Positions 29,448 through 63,999 of a DNA stretch of 64,000 nt are shown here, piece by piece; within the stretch, counting starts at the first letter, position 1; every line of letters begins with the position of its first letter. The stretch lies in assembly GCF_018350175.1 (NCBI RefSeq), contig NC_058368.1, positions 81,966,001 through 82,030,000 of the forward strand. Reading direction: 5' to 3'. This DNA comes from Felis catus (taxonomy: Eukaryota). The notes under the pieces are model-generated. The model was not told where the DNA came from and did not search any database. It saw nothing but the letters and a program-made list of their open reading frames with translations. The position numbers and the translations under genes are program-made.

Positions 29448-38580
<9,133 letters not shown>

Positions 38581-38935: not shown

Positions 38936-41788
38936 TTCCATTCCTGTCTTCTTGCACAAGCATGTCACCCTCATTTCACGTACACGGGAAGCATCATCCA
39001 TTCATCCTGGGGACTATCCTTCCAGATCTTTCTGTGTACGTAGCTTTGACCATAAAATGTGAGGCTGTCACCCTCCATATGGCGTTTGTCACTGGCCCAC
39101 CTGTGAGCACACCTCTGGAGCGCCCTCCTGCCACCCTGGAGCGCGCCCGTCCTCACCCTGTTGCCCTGCTTGTCCTGCAGCCACGCTTTCTCTCACGCTC
39201 ACAGCACCCCGGAGATGGGCCTTCCTCCACCAAGGCTGTTTTCCAAAACCAAAAGCACGTGGGCGGGTTTTGGAGGCTGTGGTTCCCCAAACCCTACAGA
39301 ACCGGGCATCCTTTTCCCGCCAAGGTCCCAGTCAACAACGGTCCTCAACGAGGGTCCTAGAGAAGCCCTGCCTGAGAGCCACCAGCTTCCTCAGTCCTGC
39401 CGCATCAGTGGGACCAGGGAAGGACCCAGTGAGTGACATTTTTATCAGGTCCCTCAGGTGATCGTGGGGCCCGCTCGGCCTAAAGCCACACAGGCCATGG
39501 AGGAGGGAGAAACAAGCCGTCTGGTGGGGGAGGGAGATGACACAGAAGTGGGGCCCCCCTAAACACGGCAAGGCAGGTAAGGGCCCTGCCCCCCACCAGA
39601 CACATCCGTGGGTGGAGGGGGCAGACTGGTTGCCCCAAGCCTGGAACGCCAACAGTGCTCCACACGGGTGCATTTGGCACCGGACTTGCTGGGCTGAGGG
39701 ATCAAGCCGTATTTAGTGTAGAGTGAACCCAGGCCACCTGGTTTTGTCCAAGTGTCCTGGGATACACCCGTTCCTTACACGGCATCCTCGGACAGAGATG
39801 GTCCGGCCAAAGAGACTATCTGCCCCTGGAGCCGGACGTGCTCACGATCTGGGCCTTTGCACAAGTGGTTCACTGGCAGCCCAGCCGGCCGCCAGCCGGG
39901 GTCTCAGCAAACGGACGGCTGTGCACCTAAGGAGACCCACCAGTGGGCGAGTGCGGCCCGCCTCATACTCCTGGTCAAGCCACCTCCTGCCCTGTGCCGT
40001 AGCTCCTTGTCTTCGAAACAGGGGCCTCGGTGCTGGTGACCAGGATGGTCTGGAGCACGTAAGATGAGGGCCCTGGGAGGGCCCGCTGTGTCATGGACAG
40101 TAAAGCCGGTGTGCAAGCCTCTGGCGTCCTCCCCACAGCTCGGGCTGCAGGTGCTGAGGGGAGTTTCCTGCGTGCAGAATCCAGGAGCTGCCAGGAGCCC
40201 CGCGCCTGGGGCACTGGAGCTGGCTGGCCCCCTTTCCTGGAGAGGAAAGAAGAGGATGGGCTGGCACACTCGGGCTTCTCTGGCTGTCAGGGGGAGACAC
40301 AGGCCCCTGCCCGGTAGAGCTGCCATGGCACGGGCGCCCGGTGACATCGGGACAGCCCCTAAAGGCTAACACGGCCGATGAGCCCACAGGCTCCCACGTT
40401 ACCCCCAGCACCGGGTGCCAGAGATGGGAGGGGCTCACCCGGGACCTGGTCTCCCCCACATGCTGAATGCACCCAGAGACAACACCACACACAAAGAGGC
40501 CGGCGAGACAGGCCCAGGGCACCCCCTCTCCCCAAGGGCCAGGCTCTGCATGTCACAGCGGCCACCCTGTGGACGACCAGCCAGAGCAGAAGACTTTTGG
40601 GACATCACTGCCGCATTCGGTCTGTGAGGGGTGGTTAAGCACCCACCGTGTGCCACACATCCCTGCAGCAAAAAGCAGACAGCCTGAGGCTTCTGTCCCA
40701 GTGAGCAAGGGTGTCGAAGGTCACTCACCACGTGCAGGATGTCAGGTGTGGTGGGCGCTGTGGGATATGGGGCAGTGTCTCCATCCCTGTCTCTGTCTCC
40801 TGCTGTCTCTCTGTCCCTGTCTCTGTCTCTCCCTGTCTCTGTGACACCCTCCCCCCCGCCCCCGAGGGCCCTGGCACATGGCCTGCGCCCACCATGTGGC
40901 TGGACTGCCACGGGCTGAGCCTCCTTGGGCTGGGGGGATGCGGCAGGTGTATCTCCCACGTCTCACGTGCAGTGCACTGGCCAGGAGCCCCCATACTCCT
41001 CACCCCCTCTCCCGGGTGGCCGGACCGGCTTGAGAGAGAGAGAGACTCACCGTAAGGCCCCCGATCTGGGGGCTCACTTCCCTGCCCCCGCCCACCCCCA
41101 GTGGGGTGTGCGAGGCAAAGCCCCTTCTGGGAAACCCCCAGCCCGCGGGCATCTCCAGGACTGAGAGGGCCAGCCCACTGTTCCCTGGCCACGGGCTCCC
41201 CGACCTCTAGCCAGATGTCCTGGGCTGGCACTGGCTGCACCGGGCAGGCCAGACCCCCCAGAAGTGTGGGCAGGAGCCCTCAGCCCAGAGGGGCCACAGG
41301 ACACCCCTGCCTCCTGGGGCCCCTGGATTTCAGCTGGTGGTGCCAGCCTTTCACACTGGCGAAGCCAGTGCACCAGGACCCCCTATGATGGTGGCACTTG
41401 GTGGCACCTCCTGATGCCACCTGGAGACAGAGGCCATGGGCAGAAGGTCTGCTGCTATGGCCGACAGCCCTGGGTCCAAACCCCATGTGCGCCCCGGACA
41501 GCCCTGGGCTGACACCTGCTGTAGACCTAAGAGTCTGTCCTGGAGAAAAGATGGGACTGGACACTCAGCTCTTAGCGTGGCTGGAAGGACAGAATGACTG
41601 CAGACGCAACATCTGCAAACTATAAAATGACACTTTTGTTCTCCTAAGAACTCCCTGTGCCCATGGCTGGCCCCTCAGACCGAGTGCCCAATGATGCCAG
41701 GGCCACCCCAGCCGCCCCAGGGCTGCACCTGCAGGGTGGCCCTGCCCCCGCGAGGTCACTGGCCCCCGGCCCCTCAGCGGCCCAGGCT

Positions 41789-41902: not shown

Positions 41903-53940
<12,038 letters not shown>

Positions 53941-53953
<13 letters not shown>

Positions 53954-54075
53954 GCGGGGAGCCTTGCGCCCCACCCCCAGCTGCTGGTGTCTCGTTTGTG
54001 CGGCCCAAGGCCGAGCGGGGGGCCCTGCGCCCCACCCCCATTAAAGTCATGCCAGCTGCTGGTGTCTCGTTTGTG
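53941..54075 (+). repeat. Tandem duplication (61 + 74 bp) spanning the F10 stop and poly(A) signal
   Basis: ggcccaaggcYgagcggggRgccYtgcgccccaccccca...gctgctggtgtctcgtttgtg occurs twice. Confidence 0.93.
54040..54045 (+). terminator. F10 polyadenylation signal (ATTAAA)
   Basis: ATTAAA followed by GT-rich ggtgtctcgtttgtgtttg; human F10 also uses ATTAAA. Confidence 0.75.
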
Positions 54076-56984
54076 TTTGCACGGGCCGGTCTCAGCGGCA
54101 GCGCCCGGACCAGGTCTCCTGTCTGCAGTGGCGCCACCTGTGTGGATTCCTTACCCTGGTGTTTTCCTCGCTCCGTGGAAGACACGTTCCTCTGGACACC
54201 AGAGCCAGCCTTTCCCTGTCCAGGTTGGGAAGTGCCATCAAGAGACGCTAGACGGTGGGACAGGAGTCCAGACGCCCCAGGACAGCCCCCCCCCCCATTG
54301 ACAGCAGGCTCTTCCAGTTGTGGTCAGGACACAGGGGAGGCAGTGGCGGGGGCTCTGGGAGCAGGGGCGGGGCGGGGGTCCCAGGAAGGCTGAGAGCCTC
54401 TCACCGGCCCCGATGCTTCTGCGTGGACTGAGCGGCTGCTCCTCCCGCTGGTCCCACGCTGGACGCGGCCGGGGGGCCATCCGCTGTCCTGCAAGCGGCT
54501 CGTGTGCTCCCAGGGGCAACGGTCCCCAGCCCCCAGATTAAACCAGTCTGTGTGGACGTGACTCCTCAGCGGCCCCGAGCGCCCTGTGTGCTGTGGGGTC
54601 TGGGGGAGGGGCCCGTCTGCTCTGCGCGGCCAGCCCTTCCCGTCAGGGTCCCCAGCCTGCGGTCATGAGGAGCAAAGTGCTTTAGCAAACCCTTTTCCAA
54701 ATGCCCCCACAGTTTGCATTTTGCGTAACTGCGATGAGCAAAGTTTCAAAGTGCCAGTACTGAGATGCCCCAAATGTCACAGGCTGGCAGCGTGCTTTGT
54801 CAACAGCAGGCAACGCGAGGTTAGGCAAATCGATGTGAGCGGACACGTGGTTTCCCAGAAGCCGTCAGAGGCACACAGAGAAGGCCCAGGCTGAGTGGGG
54901 GGGAGGCTGTCCTCTTGTGGGTTTTCCACGCACCTGAGCGCTCTGTGCGCCCCGAGCCCTGGACGGGTTCTGAGGTCAAAGGTGGTCTGGGGCCCAGACA
55001 GGATTGCAGCCGCCCCCATCTCTCACTGGTGGCCCGGGCGGCGATGGGGCTCACATGCGCATCAGAGGGGGAGACTGAGGCACACCAGAGAAGGGTGTGC
55101 CCCCGCTGCCTCCCTCTGGCAGCTCCTCCTCTCTTCCAGAAGGAGAATCCGTTCAGTGAGGCCCTGGAGGAGACGACGGGATGCCGTGGGGAGGGCGGTG
55201 AGGGCTGGGACTCATGACGGGGCACCTGCTGTCCCCTGTGCCCTGCCGCCACTCACCTCCCTCCATGATGCTATCTGCCTGGGGACGGAGCTAACGGAGC
55301 TGCCCGGCGCACATGTCCCTCTCACCAGGCTGGTCGGCTGCGACCGAGCATCGAGTGCCCCTCAGGGACACGGGGACATGGCAGGGTGGCTGGGGTGGGG
55401 CCCAGGCCCTGTGGACGGCGGGCACAAGGCCCAGGAGCTGCAGGGGAGAAGGTGGATGTGGTTCTTGTTCCCGAGGGAGAGGGCAGAGGTCTCAGGACAA
55501 ATGACATGAACCCCATCTGATCCATACCCCCACCTGTTCCTTGAAGGGTCAGTCGCCCCCAAACACTGAGTGGCTTCCACAGGCCCAGCCTGAGTTAGGT
55601 GGGGGGGGGGGGGGGGGGGAGGGCTCGCTGGATGGTGGGCTTGGCCAAGGCCGGGGACCAGGCCTGTTCAAGGGAGGCCGACGGAACTACCAGATCAGAG
55701 GGCAGGTGGGCCCGGGTTTCCATTTAGGGGCAATTCCACCGCAGGAATCCCTGATTGAAGCAGGTCACCAAGGACACCAAACCCTGGAGTCTCCCGGAGT
55801 CTCAACTTTGCAGAGAAATGACTGTTTCATCACAGACAGGACAGGTGGCTCCCCCAGCAAGACCGCCCACGGGAGTCAGTACATGAGGGGAGCGAGTGAT
55901 GGGGAGCCCGCGTGGCATGGGCTGTGAGGCCCCCGCAGCCAGGATGCTGACAGTGCACCATGTGTCCCCAGTCCTTCCCGTGTGACTGAGATTGAAGCCA
56001 AACTTGCTACTTCCCCCATCACGTGGTGCTGAGTGCGTCTCGGGTTTGAGGACACACTCGGTTCTTACAGAACGCCTCTGTGGTCCGCTGGTTGCCTGGC
56101 TCGAAGCCCCAGGCTGTGGTCCACTCTGTGCCTTTACAGAAACGCTTGCCACACTCCCTCGGGGACCCGTCCTGCCACACTGGCCTCCGTGCTGGGCCCC
56201 AGGCAGCCCATGGCCCTGGGGTCGCTCCAAGCCCCCGGAGGCTGCTTACTGGGCTCAGGTTCCTCTCCCCATCACACACCCCCTTATGTGCTCTCCTCCA
56301 GGCTGTGACTCTTGACCAGCCCCCTGCCCTCCTGTGTGCCCCCCGTGGAGGGGACCTGAAAGGTGAGCTCCAGGTGACTGTCCCCTGCCCAGAGCTGCCC
56401 ACGTGGGAGCCCCTGAGCCTTGTTACTCAGGGCCGCCCGCGGGATGCCGGCTGTCCCCGTTTCCTGGGACGGGACCTGCTGACCTCACTCCTGGGAAGCC
56501 CGCCCAGCTCCAGGGTCCTCGACACCTCACCTCAGCCCCCTGTGCCTTGGACACGGAAGAGAAGCAGTGCGGAGACACTGACACTGACTGTATGCGGTGA
56601 GGTGGTGTGTGTTGTAGGCCGGGGGCGTCCTCAGAAGCCCCTTGTCCTCAGGCCCGTGTCCGCAGACCTGTCCCTGGTGGCCGTGGGCTGGTGGGCCGCG
56701 TGGTGCTCAGGCCTCTGCTCCACCCCGCTGGGCCCTTCCCCAGAGGCCGGGGGCCAGGCAGGGCCAGACGTGACGAGCCGTCCTGCTTCTCTCACTGGTG
56801 ACACACGTGGGAAGTGGTGGCGTCTCTCCGGGCCCTTCTGGAGCCAGAGCCTGCCCTACAGTCGCCGCCACCCCACCAGCCCCACGCACCAGCCCCTCGC
56901 TGCCCTGCTCTCCCTCAGCACCCCCACCCTCTGCACACACAGGAGTAATGACATAAACCCAACTTTGTAACTTTTAAATGAAGA

Positions 56985-57085
56985 TGGCACATTGAAACCA
57001 TATTATTTTGGATCTATTGGGTTGGGTATGTGTATCATTAAAATTATTTTAAGGTCTCTCTTCTGATGTTTTAATTGTGCTGCCG
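56985..57085. mobile_element. MER33/MER3-like remnant
   Basis: attattttggatctattgggttgg...attaaaattatttt. Confidence 0.55.
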
Positions 57086-57489
57086 GGACACCGTTCTGAC
57101 CACTGGGGCTTCCGACGGTCCCGACGGCCCACCCCACCTCTGGTCAGAACCTCTGGAGCACACACCCCCATGTGCTGGGCTGATCAGCGTGTTGTCTGTA
57201 AGAGAGACCCACGCGGGACCTCAGGCAGTTTGCGGCACCGCGTCCGATCTTACACAACCCAAAACTATCACAGGACCTACAACAAAAGGGGATTTGTGGA
57301 ATTTCGTTCTGGAAGGGCTGTGGATAAGAGGAGTGGCCAGAAAACCCTCTAATAAAAGCCGAAAATGGACACTGTATATCCCTTTTAGTAAATGCGTCAC
57401 GGGGCTGGCACAACGGCAAGAAATCAAGAGGTGCGAAGGAAGAAAACGAAAGAAAGGTGAGCATACCCCAGCCGTGACCACTCACCCTC

Positions 57490-57700
57490 AAGTGGCCCGC
57501 AACCTCATGTCCCAGAATGGCACTCAGAGCTCCAGCCATCACACCTGTATCCCCAGCAGAAGGATGGAGGAAGGGACAAAGAAACAGCCACACCAGTTGT
57601 CTTTCAAGAAGTTTCCCGGGAGCTGCGGCCTGGCCATTCTGTCTGCATCCTGATGGCCAACACGTAGCCACACGGCCACACTTGACACCAGCAGCCCAGC
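57490..57700. mobile_element. Old MLT1 (J/K-like) LTR remnant
   Basis: gctccagccatcacacctgtat...tggccaacacgtagccacacggccacac. Confidence 0.55.
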
Positions 57701-59453
57701 TACACGTCGGGGGCTCTCGTCCTGGAGCCATGCTTCACCACTGTCATCCCTCCAGGGCAGATCAAAGAACCTCGAGGCTGCTCCCTGCCGTCCTTTGCCT
57801 GTGTCTGAAATGCCCCCACTTCCCACGCCTCTAGCTCCTGAGAGGACTCCTACCCACCCTTCGCACCTCGGAGGGAGAGCCACTTCAGGGGGACACTCTC
57901 GCTGGCCCTGCAGCCGTGGCATTGGGTCCCCCGGGTGTCTGACATAGTGTCTCTGCGGCCCCCTCGCTCTGCCTGGTTCGTTGGGAGGGATGGCTCGGCA
58001 GGTCCCGGCCCCGCACCACCAGCCGCGGCCAGGACCCGTCTGTCTGGTTTCTTGCTCAGCTCCCAGCACCCGGCCAGACCCTGGCATGTGGAAGTGCTTA
58101 GCAAGTACGTGCTGGGTGGGCTGAGCTGACCTTTCTAGCTCCCTGTCTCATCCCGCCTCCCCAGTCCTTCCCACGAGCCCGAGATTGGAGCCAAACTCGC
58201 CACTTCCCCCAATGGCTCGGGGGCAGACCAAACCCATGCTTATCCTCACGGGCAAGGACAGCTGGGAAGCCCCAGCTCAGGGGGGCTGCTTCTCCCAGCC
58301 CCCGTGGCCATGCTATGGTCACCCAGGGCATGTGAGTGGGGGCCCCGCAGGCCACTGAACCCAAGGGGAACACCATCCGGAGGCACTCAGAGAAAAATTC
58401 AGGAGCACCCGGCAGGAAGGAGACAGACACGGGCCTCGGCAAGGCTGCGCCCAGGGCGGGCCCCAGGCGGTTCCAGGACCCGCTGGTTCAGGCCGCGCTC
58501 TCCGCTCTGCCCCTCAGTGGTCAGTCGCCACCCTGGCGCCTCCATCCTGAGTGGAGTAACAGCGGCGCCCCCCCAAGCAGGGCCGAGATAAGGCTGGAGG
58601 GCAGACTCCCAGCGGCCGTTGGACCACCGCCTTCCTGAAGACGCAGCTCACACAAGCAGAGGCCCCAAACTGGTCTTCCCCAGGGCACGCACAGCACAGG
58701 CCCCAGGGAGCTCGAAGGGGCGGACACGACGTCCTTCCACAGGCTGATCTATTCACCCTCCCGCGCGGAAGCCACACAAGCCCTCAGCTGCGCAACCGGC
58801 CTGTCTCCGGTCTCCCCGGGGGAGCTGGAAGCCGCCGCAGGCCAACCGCCCCCGGAGCAGTGGCCGCAGTGGCCGCGGCTCTAACTGCCCAGGCACCACT
58901 GCAAGGGTGGACGCGGTCCACCAGAGAGAGCGCTTTTTAAAGGGATTAGAAATGTTAAGTTGATTCAAATACTTTTGAGTGAAATACCGGGAGTTGAAAC
59001 CTAGTTCAGATTTTTCAGCGTTAGGATTCTCAAACACATCGAGTGTATCTTCGCTCCTGACGTTATACCTCAACCCCAAGAGTAGACGTCCTGGGGGCCA
59101 ATCTCGCCCAGGAAGGGCCCTGGCAAAACTAAAGGTGATGTAGCAGCACACGCTGACTGGAGCGCGGAACCAGGGCAGGAGTGAGCCTTAGTCTTGGCCG
59201 AGGGCCTGTGTCATCTGCAAACCCCGTAAGGTCAGGAGGCTACAGATGTAAATGCCTGGATCTGCTAAGTGGGAACCTTACCTGGAAATTATCACCAACA
59301 CAGCATCAGCAGGGTGAACGCTCACAACAGCGTCCGGGTGACAACAGGGCTCGTCAGAGAGGACGCTGCTGGTAGACCTGCAGCGGAGACCCTGGGGGGC
59401 CAGAAAACGGAAAGGACTGCCCTTCCCCCACACAGCTCAGTGAAAGGGCTCTA

Positions 59454-59541
59454 GAGGCACCCAGCTGGCTCAGTCGGTGGAGCTCTTGATCTCAGGCTTG
59501 TGAGTTCAAGCCCCACGTTGGGGGTGGAGATTAAATAAAAA
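59454..59541 (+). mobile_element. Short/older SINEC
   Basis: gaggcacccagctggctcagtcggtggagc...ttcaagccccacgttggg head without the (CT)n body. Confidence 0.75.
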
Positions 59542-59542
59542 C

Positions 59543-59544
59543 TT

Positions 59545-59592
<48 letters not shown>

Positions 59593-59810
59593 TTTATTAT
59601 GGTTTTTTTTTTTTTGGAGAGAGAGAGACACACAGAGAGACAGAGCACAAGAGGGAGAGGGTCAGAGAGAGGGAGACACAGAATCCGAAGCAGGCTCCAG
59701 GCTCCGAGCTGTCAGCATAGAGCCCGACACGGGGCTTGAACCCAGGAACCGTGAAATCATGACCTGAGCCGAAGTCAGATGCTTAACCAACTGAGCCACC
59801 CAGGCACCCC
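59543..59810 (-). mobile_element. Full-length SINEC with (TTTA)n tail nested in the tail of the preceding SINE
   Basis: taaataaaaac on both flanks. Confidence 0.92.
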
Positions 59811-60773
59811 ATAAATAAATAAAAACATTATGAAAAAAAGTGTTCTAGAGGCCACTCGAGCACAAGAAGCAGGGACTTGGATTAGGGGACCCACCCCCAC
59901 TTGGGCAGAAGTGAGGTCTGTTCCTCTGACACAATGCAGACCAGCCGCAGGGACAAGATCTCTGTGTCCACAACCCTGAAGTGCCCCAATGTGCACACAA
60001 GCCAAGTCCAAAGAGAAGGCCATTGACACCCAAGGTGTGTCTCCTCCATGGCCAAGCAGGACCACATGCTACCGGTAACAGCTGATCCCGGATTTCTGCT
60101 GGTCGCTGTCCACTGCTGGAGGGAGGGCCTCATGGCGCTGACAAAGCCCAGAGTGAGATCCAGGCCATGAGCACACGGCTCTACACCCGGCTGCAGGGTG
60201 GCCCCACAGAGCAGCGGAAGGTGGCTGTTCCTCACGCACTGCCGTGAGAGAAAGGGACAGCGCGGCCCCAGTGCAAGAGGATTATGGGCCTGCCAGTGAC
60301 CACACTTTCCTGCTCAGGAAACTGGCTGGGGAAAGGGCAGCCTGGAGGTCAAGAACCTGCCGGCCATAAATCCACGGCACACGCTCCAACCCGCAGACAC
60401 CATCCAGGGCACATGGGTCCCTCAGCTGGGATCCGGATGTGCCTAGGGCACAGGTGACACTATGTGACTCGGGAGGCTGGAGCAGCCACCGGTGAGGCCC
60501 ATGTGGACTCGAACTGGGAGCCAGAGCCCAGAGCCAAAGCACCCCTAGTGGTCACCCAACCCCATGGGGCCAGCTGGCACCACAGGGAGCAGGCGCACAC
60601 CTCCCACCGAGCCCAGGGGGCCCGCCAGGCGGCAGGAGACTGACGCAGGACCAATCCGTCAGTCTTGAGCTGCGGCCTGTGCCGTAAGGGGAACCACGTT
60701 CTCTGAAGCAGCTTCTAAGCTTCTACCCTCAGTAACACCGCAAAGACAAGCTGAAACCACTTGGGACATTTTC

Positions 60774-60779
60774 TTTAGT
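60774..60779 (-). terminator. Possible PCID2 variant poly(A) signal (ACTAAA)
   Basis: tttagt on + strand at the end of an AT-rich 3'UTR-like block; I saw no canonical AATAAA on the - strand nearby. Confidence 0.35.
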
Positions 60780-61267
60780 AAATTTTGCACGAACAGAGGA
60801 AACGTGCACACTCTGAAAACATGGCAGGCTGTAAAATGTGGAACGTTATCGAAGTAAATTCATTTTGTACAAAGAAGCTTTAAATTAACCAAACACTTTG
60901 ATCAGATACAAAGTTCAAATTTAACGTATAAAAATAGATGTGCCTCCAGAAGACAGAATAAAGGACACGCCATTCGTATAAACTCAGGATGCTGTTTCAA
61001 AGGAAGGGTTACGTAAAAATTTACCAAGGTGCCTTTAGGAACAGCACCTCTGAGGTAACAGAGCTGTGCGGGGCACAGAGCCCCTTCGCCCGTCCACATT
61101 TTCTGAAGGAGCTCCCGCTCTCCGCATGGTGGACCTCAGTTGTGAGCCCAGAGAAACGAGCCCAGAGATCGCGGCGGCGGAGGGTCCTGGCACAGGATGG
61201 ATTTCATCTGCGCAAACGGTGACTGAAGGAACATGCCGCCCTCCCGTCCTCGGGACCGTACACGCAC

Positions 61268-63999
<2,732 letters not shown>

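What the first reader, a model, noticed from the sequence alone, without database searches (positions are those of the whole stretch)
54076..60760. PROZ (protein Z) is missing from its conserved position between F10 and PCID2
Established: human and mouse gene order is MCF2L-F7-F10-PROZ-PCID2. PROZ is an 8-exon Gla/EGF/pseudo-protease gene of more than 10 kb in human. Seen: only ~6.7 kb of gap-free sequence separates the F10 poly(A) signal from the PCID2 3'UTR. It holds MER33, MLT1 and SINEC remnants plus GC-rich non-coding sequence. I found no Gla exon (LEE..G.LE.EC.EE.C), no 25-nt FW..Y exon, no 6-Cys EGF exon and no protease-fold exon on either strand, although the equivalent F7/F10 exons are obvious. 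Inference: PROZ was deleted in this lineage, removing the cofactor of the PZ/ZPI (SERPINA10) anticoagulant pathway. That would be relevant to felid haemostasis and thrombosis. I do not know whether this has already been reported.
Basis: partly seen in the sequence, partly recalled or inferred. Interest (0 to 1): 0.85.

Follow-up and report, generated by a model that had tools for sequence, protein, structure and literature searches.

The report
Protein Z gene missing in cat family
This cat-family genome really lacks the blood-clotting regulator gene PROZ, and its partner gene SERPINA10 is also dead, but the same pathway loss was already published for dogs and other carnivores, so this is a confirmation and not a surprise.

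Summary
F10 ends at 53953 and PCID2 (minus strand) ends its coding sequence at 61268. The gap-free DNA between them holds no PROZ exon by Pfam, by tblastn with 19 fish and 23 mammalian PROZ proteins, or by a PROZ profile. The same searches find the paralogous F7 and F10 exons. The whole 2.43-Gb assembly has 11 Gla exons, none of them PROZ, and a pangolin PROZ query finds only paralogues.

Two things change the reading.
- PROZ and SERPINA10 were listed as dog gene losses in 2009 (PMC2644713). SERPINA10 erosion was reported in cat, dog, ferret, panda, walrus and seal in 2020 (PMC7498332).
- In this genome I found the SERPINA10 relic beside SERPINA6. Only exon 4- and 5-like pieces remain, both best matching solved ZPI chains, with a frameshift in the reactive-centre loop.

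Among 73 mammalian PROZ rows in a database listing, none is carnivoran, although pangolins are there. The loss is therefore most likely an old, order-wide loss of the whole PZ/ZPI module, not a felid event.

I could not check contiguity at read level. I found no paper stating PROZ loss in a felid. Interest is low to moderate.

The parts
31048..38541 (+). F7 coding exons from the Gla exon to the last exon (paralogue, used as positive control)
   Evidence: Pfam Gla hit at window 31114-31212. PROZ queries hit exon positions 31048, 32977, 34712, 35805, 37390 and 38056. The name F7 rests on my reading of the Gla sequence and on F7-F10 fusion models.
43541..53953 (+). F10 coding exons from the Gla exon to the stop codon
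   Evidence: The Gla exon is 100% identical to felid coagulation factor X entries. Exon positions 43541, 47748, 49482, 50537, 52380 and 53393 are hit by PROZ queries. The last exon matches Trypsin at E 9.8e-48. TGA stop at 53951-53953.
54041..54046 (+). ATTAAA, the likely F10 poly(A) signal, inside the second copy of a roughly 70-bp imperfect tandem duplication that spans the stop codon
   Evidence: Read directly from the sequence. Function is inferred.
54076..60760 (.). F10-PCID2 intergenic DNA, the place where PROZ lies in other vertebrates; it holds no recognisable PROZ exon
   Evidence: all negative, with positive controls. 0 N. GC 0.50-0.67 with CpG observed/expected 0.29-0.73.
59543..59836 (.). 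Dispersed carnivore-type SINE copy, the only young repeat confirmed in the interval
   Evidence: 65 blastn matches in about 170 kb of other DNA from this genome.
61268..61360 (-). PCID2 last coding exon (the ORF ends ...PFPPLSTVC, then stop)
   Evidence: ORF 61268-61555 minus and sequence. The exon start is estimated by eye.
61676..61798 (-). PCID2 penultimate coding exon
   Evidence: Residues 102-142 of ORF 61583-62101 (-) match PCI domain-containing protein 2 residues 330-370 of 399, E 3e-18 to 8e-18, 7 of 7 hits.

Best explanation
The 6.7 kb between F10 and PCID2 is the scar of an old deletion that removed all PROZ coding exons. It is one half of the loss of a two-gene anticoagulant module. 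PROZ encodes the cofactor protein Z. SERPINA10 encodes ZPI, the serpin that protein Z brings to factor Xa on membranes. SERPINA10 is also dead in this genome, surviving only as a frameshifted relic of its last two exons next to SERPINA6.

The loss most likely happened in the stem of Carnivora, after the split from pangolins and before the cat-dog split. Once one partner was disabled, the other was under no selection. Both then decayed, PROZ by deletion and SERPINA10 by deletion plus point lesions. Factor Xa and XIa control in these animals must rest on the other inhibitors (antithrombin, TFPI and others; this is from established knowledge and was not tested).

Shown here: absence of PROZ in the interval and in the assembly; the SERPINA10 relic and its frameshift; absence of carnivoran PROZ entries.
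Inferred: deletion as the mechanism, the timing, the order of events and the physiological consequence.
For: Interval.
- 0 of 180 ORFs have Gla, EGF, FXa_inhibition or Trypsin domains.
- There is no coherent tblastn hit with 19 fish or 23 mammalian PROZ proteins, while F7 and F10 exons are hit by 19-23 of the 23 mammalian queries.
- The PROZ profile gives 1 of 257 ORFs at E 8.5, against 9 paralogue exons at E 1e-3 or better.

Genome.
- Pfam Gla gives 11 matches even at E<=10, with 21 of 21 candidates scored. I read them as F9, F10, PRRG4, PRRG1, PRRG2, PROS1, GAS6, F7, PROC, PRRG3 and F2 (labels recalled).
- Pangolin PROZ finds nothing above 49.5 bits, and last-exon matches reach only 30-32% identity to paralogues.
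- The control, whale F9, finds felid F9 at 90% identity and E 2e-111.

Position. A fish model fuses F10 with PROZ (P0010). Another fish PROZ model runs into the antisense of PCID2 (E 1e-9). PROZ therefore belongs between these genes.

Partner gene.
- Relics at C15:136952464-136952647 and C15:136954796-136954933 (minus strand) lie about 14-16 kb beyond the 3' end of SERPINA6.
- Their best solved-structure matches are all ZPI: E 2.1e-13 with 26 of 33 residues identical; E 1.5e-5; E 2.6e-5.
- The two exon-5 pieces are consecutive in human ZPI but lie in different frames here.
- No exon 2 or 3 was found among 146 ORFs.

Taxa. 0 of 73 mammalian PROZ rows are carnivoran (69 named, plus 4 unnamed that sit with shrews, rodents and tarsier). 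4 pangolin rows are present. 21 of 120 F10 rows are carnivoran, from 15 genera.

Literature. PROZ and SERPINA10 are among 28 dog losses (PMC2644713). SERPINA10 is eroded in cat, dog, ferret, panda, walrus and seal (PMC7498332).

Other samples. 14 of 24 run rows hold 0.98-0.99 of the interval's sampled 31-mers.
Against: - No outgroup or other carnivoran genome could be aligned, so no breakpoint is mapped and a shared deletion is not shown. The stem-Carnivora timing rests on annotation absence and on two papers.
- Absence from a 120-row listing (148 hits passed the E threshold) is not proof of absence.
- Contiguity of the interval was not checked with reads: one search gave no result. 31-mer shares cannot exclude a collapsed assembly, and 12 of the run rows may be the assembly's own source.
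- The genome search scores only the best candidates (101 of 235).
- Labels of the 11 Gla exons come from my recall, not from a named search.
- No expression or protein data were examined.
Confidence: 0.8

Rival explanations
1. PROZ was lost independently in the cat lineage and in the dog lineage, for instance after an earlier shared loss of SERPINA10. On this reading the felid deletion is a separate and younger event.
For: No breakpoints were compared between carnivores. Derrien et al. called the dog loss 'canine-specific', but their ten species included no other carnivore ('cat genome' and 'Felis' occur 0 times). SERPINA10 relics survive while PROZ left no trace, so the two genes need not have died in the same way or at the same time.
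Against: 0 of 73 mammalian PROZ rows are carnivoran, while 15 carnivoran genera have F10 entries. That would need many parallel losses. One ancestral loss is simpler. SERPINA10 erosion is shared by all six carnivores in PMC7498332.
Confidence: 0.12
2. Assembly artefact: the animal has PROZ, but the assembly collapsed or mis-joined the GC-rich F10-PCID2 region.
For: The region is GC-rich (0.50-0.67), and such DNA is often poorly assembled. Read-level contiguity could not be checked (one search gave no result).
Against: There is no N in the window. The assembly is chromosome-scale, 71 contigs. No PROZ exon lies on any other contig. 14 run rows hold 0.98-0.99 of the interval's words. The obligate partner SERPINA10 is independently dead. 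PROZ is also missing from the protein sets of all other carnivores listed.
Confidence: 0.03
3. PROZ is still present in the interval as a relic decayed beyond recognition, that is pseudogenisation without deletion.
For: The loss is old. Weak chance-level matches exist in the interval: E 0.023, E 0.18 and E 8.5.
Against: SERPINA10 exon 5 is still 26 of 33 residues identical to human ZPI after a comparable time, so neutral decay alone should have left detectable PROZ exons. The interval matches are no better than noise in the 29 kb upstream (13 hits at E 0.5-8.9).
Confidence: 0.05

Closest known systems
PROZ and SERPINA10 gene losses in the domestic dog (Derrien et al. 2009, BMC Genomics, PMC2644713; passages and a supplement row seen)
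   Same: The same two genes of the same pathway are missing from a carnivore genome, and both are conserved from chicken or marsupials to human.
   Different: That paper studied only the dog and called the losses 'canine-specific'. It gives no locus anatomy for PROZ in the passages I read. Here the species is a felid, the PROZ site is shown to be empty, and the SERPINA10 relic is described.
[quoted passage not shown] 2020, NAR, PMC7498332; passages and a supplement row seen)
   Same: SERPINA10 is a eroded orthologue at its conserved locus in cat. 'Much of the exonic portions' is absent in dog, as are exons 2-3 here.
   Different: PROZ occurs 0 times in that paper's main text and in its one held supplement. 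A fully deleted gene may escape a chain-mapping method (my inference).
Lineage-wide losses of other clotting genes, such as F12 and KLKB1 in whales
   Same: Functionally linked coagulation genes are lost together in one mammalian order without obvious harm.
   Different: A different pathway (contact activation) in a different order. Those genes are mostly pseudogenes with identifiable lesions, not a clean absence.
Protein Z / ZPI anticoagulant system of human and mouse (solved complexes 3f1s and 3h5c, listed)
   Same: The relic's last exon aligns to the ZPI reactive-centre loop and C-terminus. PROZ orthologues from fish to pangolin were recovered.
   Different: Neither gene can make a product here.

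Membership tests
PROZ gene (vitamin K-dependent protein Z) | A Gla-domain exon at the locus | tested here: not met
   There is no Gla match among the 180 interval ORFs. Genome-wide there are 11 Gla exons, none unassigned.
PROZ gene (vitamin K-dependent protein Z) | Two EGF-like exons and a protease-like domain without catalytic residues | tested here: not met
   No match in the interval with 19 fish PROZ proteins, 23 mammalian PROZ proteins or the profile. The genome search with pangolin PROZ gives only paralogues at 30-32% identity.
Unitary gene loss by deletion | Both conserved neighbours present, correctly oriented and joined without a gap | tested here: met
   F10 (+) ends at 53953 and PCID2 (-) ends at 61268, with 0 N. 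Fish models link F10 to PROZ and PROZ to antisense PCID2.
Unitary gene loss by deletion | No copy elsewhere in the genome | tested here: met
   with the positive control. Limit: only the best candidates are scored.
Unitary gene loss by deletion | Orthologue intact in outgroups, including the sister order | tested here: met
   There are 69 named mammalian PROZ rows, 4 of them from pangolins, plus reptiles, birds, amphibians, lungfish and fish. Intactness is taken from the annotated lengths and was not verified.
Unitary gene loss by deletion | Join confirmed by independent reads or assemblies | tested here: inconclusive
   14 of 24 run rows hold 0.98-0.99 of the sampled words, but words do not prove contiguity and 12 rows may be the assembly's source. 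The read lay gave no result.
Unitary gene loss by deletion | No transcript or protein in liver or plasma | not tested
SERPINA10 (ZPI) unitary pseudogene | Conserved position next to SERPINA6, same strand | tested here: met
   The relics on C15 (minus strand) lie 14-16 kb beyond the last exon of SERPINA6 at C15:136968735-136968917. The SERPINA6 label comes from my reading of the sequence.
SERPINA10 (ZPI) unitary pseudogene | Closest to ZPI and not to other serpins | tested here: met
   In one search the top 4 hits are ZPI (E 2.1e-13 to 2.6e-7) and the next serpin is at E 0.0023. In one search the top 4 are ZPI. In one search all 4 of 4 hits are ZPI.
SERPINA10 (ZPI) unitary pseudogene | Disabling lesions | tested here: met
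   The two halves of exon 5 are in different frames. Only exon 4- and 5-like ORFs match Serpin among 146 ORFs. There is no Pfam serpin hit left of SERPINA6 in the genome scan.

The most novel reading that the evidence does not exclude
The protein Z / ZPI pair behaves as an all-or-nothing module that mammals have discarded more than once. It was lost once in stem Carnivora, with PROZ cleanly excised and SERPINA10 left as a relic. It may have been lost a second time in rabbits and pikas, where SERPINA10 erosion is published (PMC7498332) and where I saw no PROZ row in the listing. If PROZ is also gone in lagomorphs, the repeated co-loss would be a natural experiment. It would show that factor Xa control by PZ/ZPI is dispensable, and that cofactor and serpin are each useless without the other.
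Probability: 0.3. Interest if true: 0.45.

Novelty: new member of a known kind. Interest (0 to 1): 0.3.

Why it matters
Cats and dogs are veterinary patients with important clotting disease, and they are used as models for anticoagulant drugs that target factor Xa. Knowing that the whole order lacks both protein Z and its serpin has practical consequences.
- Protein Z and ZPI assays, and reasoning carried over from human disease genes, do not apply to them.
- Their factor Xa and XIa control relies on fewer inhibitors.

For evolution, this is a tidy case of co-loss of a cofactor and its partner. It matters only modestly, because both halves were already in print for carnivores. What this work adds is the felid PROZ locus anatomy, the felid SERPINA10 lesion, and the link between the two reports.

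Tried and rejected
- Whole-frame translations were not accepted because of stop codons, so I used ORF lists instead.
- Getting a PROZ query took several steps.
  - The felid F10 Gla exon gave only F10 and F7-F10 fusion models.
  - One fish model, P0010, held F10 plus PROZ.
  - The search of representatives with P0010 gave only fish PROZ in its best 150.
  - A length-limited search with part of a fish PROZ gave one mammalian fragment, P0347.
  - P0329 from that list turned out to be whale F9, so serves only as a control.
  - P0347 then gave the mammalian set.
- A match at 39223-39366 (+) to all 23 mammalian PROZ proteins (E 0.002-0.007) was rejected. It lies in the F7 3' flank, runs across what are separate exons in PROZ, keeps no cysteine, and contains a stop. 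The 23 queries are not independent.
- A weak exon-2-like SERPINA match at C15:136961171-136961269 (E 0.044) was rejected after reading the frames. It has no Pfam hit.
- My first tblastn in the SERPINA region was swamped by SINE-derived ORFs and was redone with exon-only queries.
- The read lay gave no result. Organism B rows show only near-identical words.
- Earlier-findings look-ups gave nothing relevant.
- Papers on PROZ loss in felids or Carnivora: the searches found only PMC2644713 for PROZ. One search was badly designed (any two of six terms) and is uninformative. Subscription journals and genome-annotation resources were not searchable.
Full report
**Where the window lies.** The window is G000:C1:81966001-82030000 of a 2.43-Gb assembly in 71 contigs, and it contains no N. 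The F10 Gla exon (window 43544-43702) is 100% identical to 'coagulation factor X' entries of cheetah and of a jaguarundi-headed cluster with 23 members. The genome is therefore felid.

**The flanking genes.**
- The F10 last exon lies in ORF 53366-53953 and matches Pfam Trypsin at E 9.8e-48. Its TGA stop is at 53951-53953, followed by an ATTAAA at 54041-54046.
- PCID2 is on the minus strand. ORF 61583-62101 matches solved PCID2 at residues 330-370 of 399, E 3e-18, and all 7 hits are PCID2. The coding sequence ends at 61268.
- The two stop codons are 7.3 kb apart.

**Is PROZ in the interval? No, by four tests, each with a working control.**
1. Of 180 stop-to-stop ORFs of at least 25 aa in 54000-60800, none matches Gla, EGF, FXa_inhibition or Trypsin at E<=10 (150, 30). 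The only EGF-named row is a 7.6-bit, E 4.5 match to EGF_Pikachurin. The same call finds Trypsin in two F10 exons.
2. Nineteen fish PROZ proteins were tested. Eight of their source models were looked up and five carry 'protein Z' names. They hit six F7 and six F10 exon positions at E 0.016 to 1.6e-15. In the interval the best values are E 0.023 and 0.07, both on the wrong strand, and no better than noise elsewhere in the window.
3. Twenty-three mammalian PROZ proteins hit nine F7/F10 exon positions with 19-23 of 23 queries (best E 5e-15). The interval gives E 0.18 at best.
4. A profile of those 23 proteins gives 1 of 257 interval ORFs at E 8.5. It gives nine paralogue exons at E 1e-3 to 2e-20, and 13 of 1111 noise hits in the 29 kb upstream.

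Only one young repeat could be confirmed, a SINE at 59543-59836. MER33 and MLT1 were not testable.

**Is PROZ elsewhere in the genome? No.**
- Pfam Gla finds 11 exons, and still 11 when the threshold is raised to E 10, with all 21 candidates scored.
- Reading their sequences, I assign them to F9, F10, PRRG4, PRRG1, PRRG2, PROS1, GAS6, F7, PROC, PRRG3 and F2. The labels come from recall. The chromosome grouping fits: three on one contig as expected for X-linked F9, PRRG1 and PRRG3, and three on C1.
- Pangolin PROZ (P0426) finds nothing above 49.5 bits. Its protease-domain matches are the last exons of PROC, F7, F10 and F9 at 30-32% identity.
- As a control, whale F9 finds the felid F9 exons at 69-90% identity, with the last exon at E 2e-111.

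**PROZ belongs at this site.** A toadfish model (P0010) fuses F10 with a downstream PROZ. Another fish PROZ model (P0218) runs on into the antisense reading of PCID2, matching window 62068-62526 (+) at E 1e-9.

**The partner gene SERPINA10.**
- A genome scan with Pfam Serpin places the SERPINA cluster on C15:136.97-137.24 Mb. The leftmost intact gene reads as SERPINA6 (corticosteroid-binding globulin) and the next intact one as SERPINA1 (labels by eye). No serpin match lies beyond SERPINA6, where SERPINA10 is expected.
- tblastn with this genome's own SERPINA1 and SERPINA6 exons found a last-exon relic at C15:136952464-136952647 (minus strand), split between two reading frames (E 2e-7).
- Both pieces best match solved protein Z-dependent protease inhibitor. 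The C-terminal piece scores E 2.1e-13 with 26 of 33 residues identical; the top four hits are ZPI and the next serpin is at E 0.0023. The reactive-centre-loop piece scores E 1.5e-5, again with ZPI as the top four.
- The two pieces align to human residues 321-354 and 352-385 of chain 3f1s_A. They are consecutive in the protein but lie in different frames here, so there is a frameshift just after the SMPP codons.
- The residue aligned with the Tyr of human AYSMPP is Asp. I recall that Tyr as the P1 residue, but that was not checked.
- An exon-4-like ORF (C15:136954796-136954933) matches only ZPI, 4 of 4 hits, best E 2.6e-5.
- Among 146 minus-strand ORFs of at least 30 aa across about 12 kb, only these three match Serpin. 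No exon 2 or 3 is recognisable.
- SERPINA10 is therefore a decayed unitary pseudogene. Because it is an independent locus on another chromosome, it also argues strongly against an assembly artefact at the PROZ site.

**How old is the loss?**
- A search with a musk-deer PROZ fragment listed 120 of 148 hits, down to amphibian and bird PROZ at about 50% identity.
- I count 69 named mammalian rows: ruminants, camelids, hippo, whales, bats, horses, rhino, pangolins (4 rows), shrews, hedgehog, rodents, primates, afrotheres, xenarthrans and a marsupial. Four unnamed rows sit with shrews, rodents and tarsier.
- None of these 73 rows is carnivoran.
- By contrast, 21 of 120 rows in the F10 search are carnivoran, from 15 genera.
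- A carnivoran PROZ at the roughly 70% identity seen for bats and horses would have ranked far above the cut-off.

**Literature.**
- Derrien et al. 2009 list PROZ and SERPINA10 among 28 dog gene losses (PMC2644713; passages and one supplement row seen). Their species set had no other carnivore.
- Turakhia et al. [quoted passage not shown] They note that much of its exonic sequence is absent in dog (PMC7498332; passages and one supplement row seen). PROZ does not occur in that paper or its held supplement.
- Searches found no paper stating PROZ loss in a felid or across Carnivora. One search was uninformative.

**Conclusion.** PROZ was removed by deletion, and SERPINA10 decayed. This most likely happened in the carnivoran stem after the split from pangolins. 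Deletion is inferred, not shown, for two reasons: SERPINA10 exon 5 is still easily recognised after a comparable time, so undeleted PROZ exons should be recognisable too; and the interval is short.

**What remains open.**
- Breakpoints, because no other mammalian genome could be aligned here.
- Read-level contiguity, because one search gave no result and the word shares do not prove a join.
- Expression.
- Which gene died first.

**Verdict.** The finding is real, but it is an extension of published carnivore losses, not a felid novelty.

Noticed in passing
window 53937-54075: There is an imperfect tandem duplication of about 70 bp across the F10 stop codon and 3' end. The second copy carries a roughly 14-bp insert that contains the ATTAAA signal.
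   Followed up: no
window 39223-39366 (+): A 48-aa stretch in the F7 3' flank matches the Gla/EGF1 junction of all 23 mammalian PROZ queries at E 0.002-0.007. It has a stop, no conserved cysteine, and spans what are separate exons in PROZ. I judged it chance.
   Followed up: partly
G000:C15:137027476-137027940 (-) and C15:137112248-137112751 (-): Two further damaged serpin exon-2 copies lie in the SERPINA cluster. One is SERPINA1-like with an in-frame TAG, between SERPINA6 and SERPINA1. The other has five TGA stops.
   Followed up: partly
listing (no locus): No rabbit or pika PROZ row appears among the 69 named mammalian rows, although many rodents do. SERPINA10 is reported eroded in rabbit and pika (PMC7498332), so PROZ may be co-lost there too.
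   Followed up: no
P0002, P0021; P0010, P0218: Public gene models fuse neighbouring clotting genes: F7-F10 in a hamster and a gundi, F10-PROZ in a fish, and PROZ with antisense PCID2 in another fish. These are annotation read-through errors that happen to record gene order.
   Followed up: partly
G000:C17:7961521-7962228 (-): A single-exon, intact trypsin-like domain (274-aa open frame) matches F9 and PROZ protease domains at 31-34% identity. I did not identify it.
   Followed up: no
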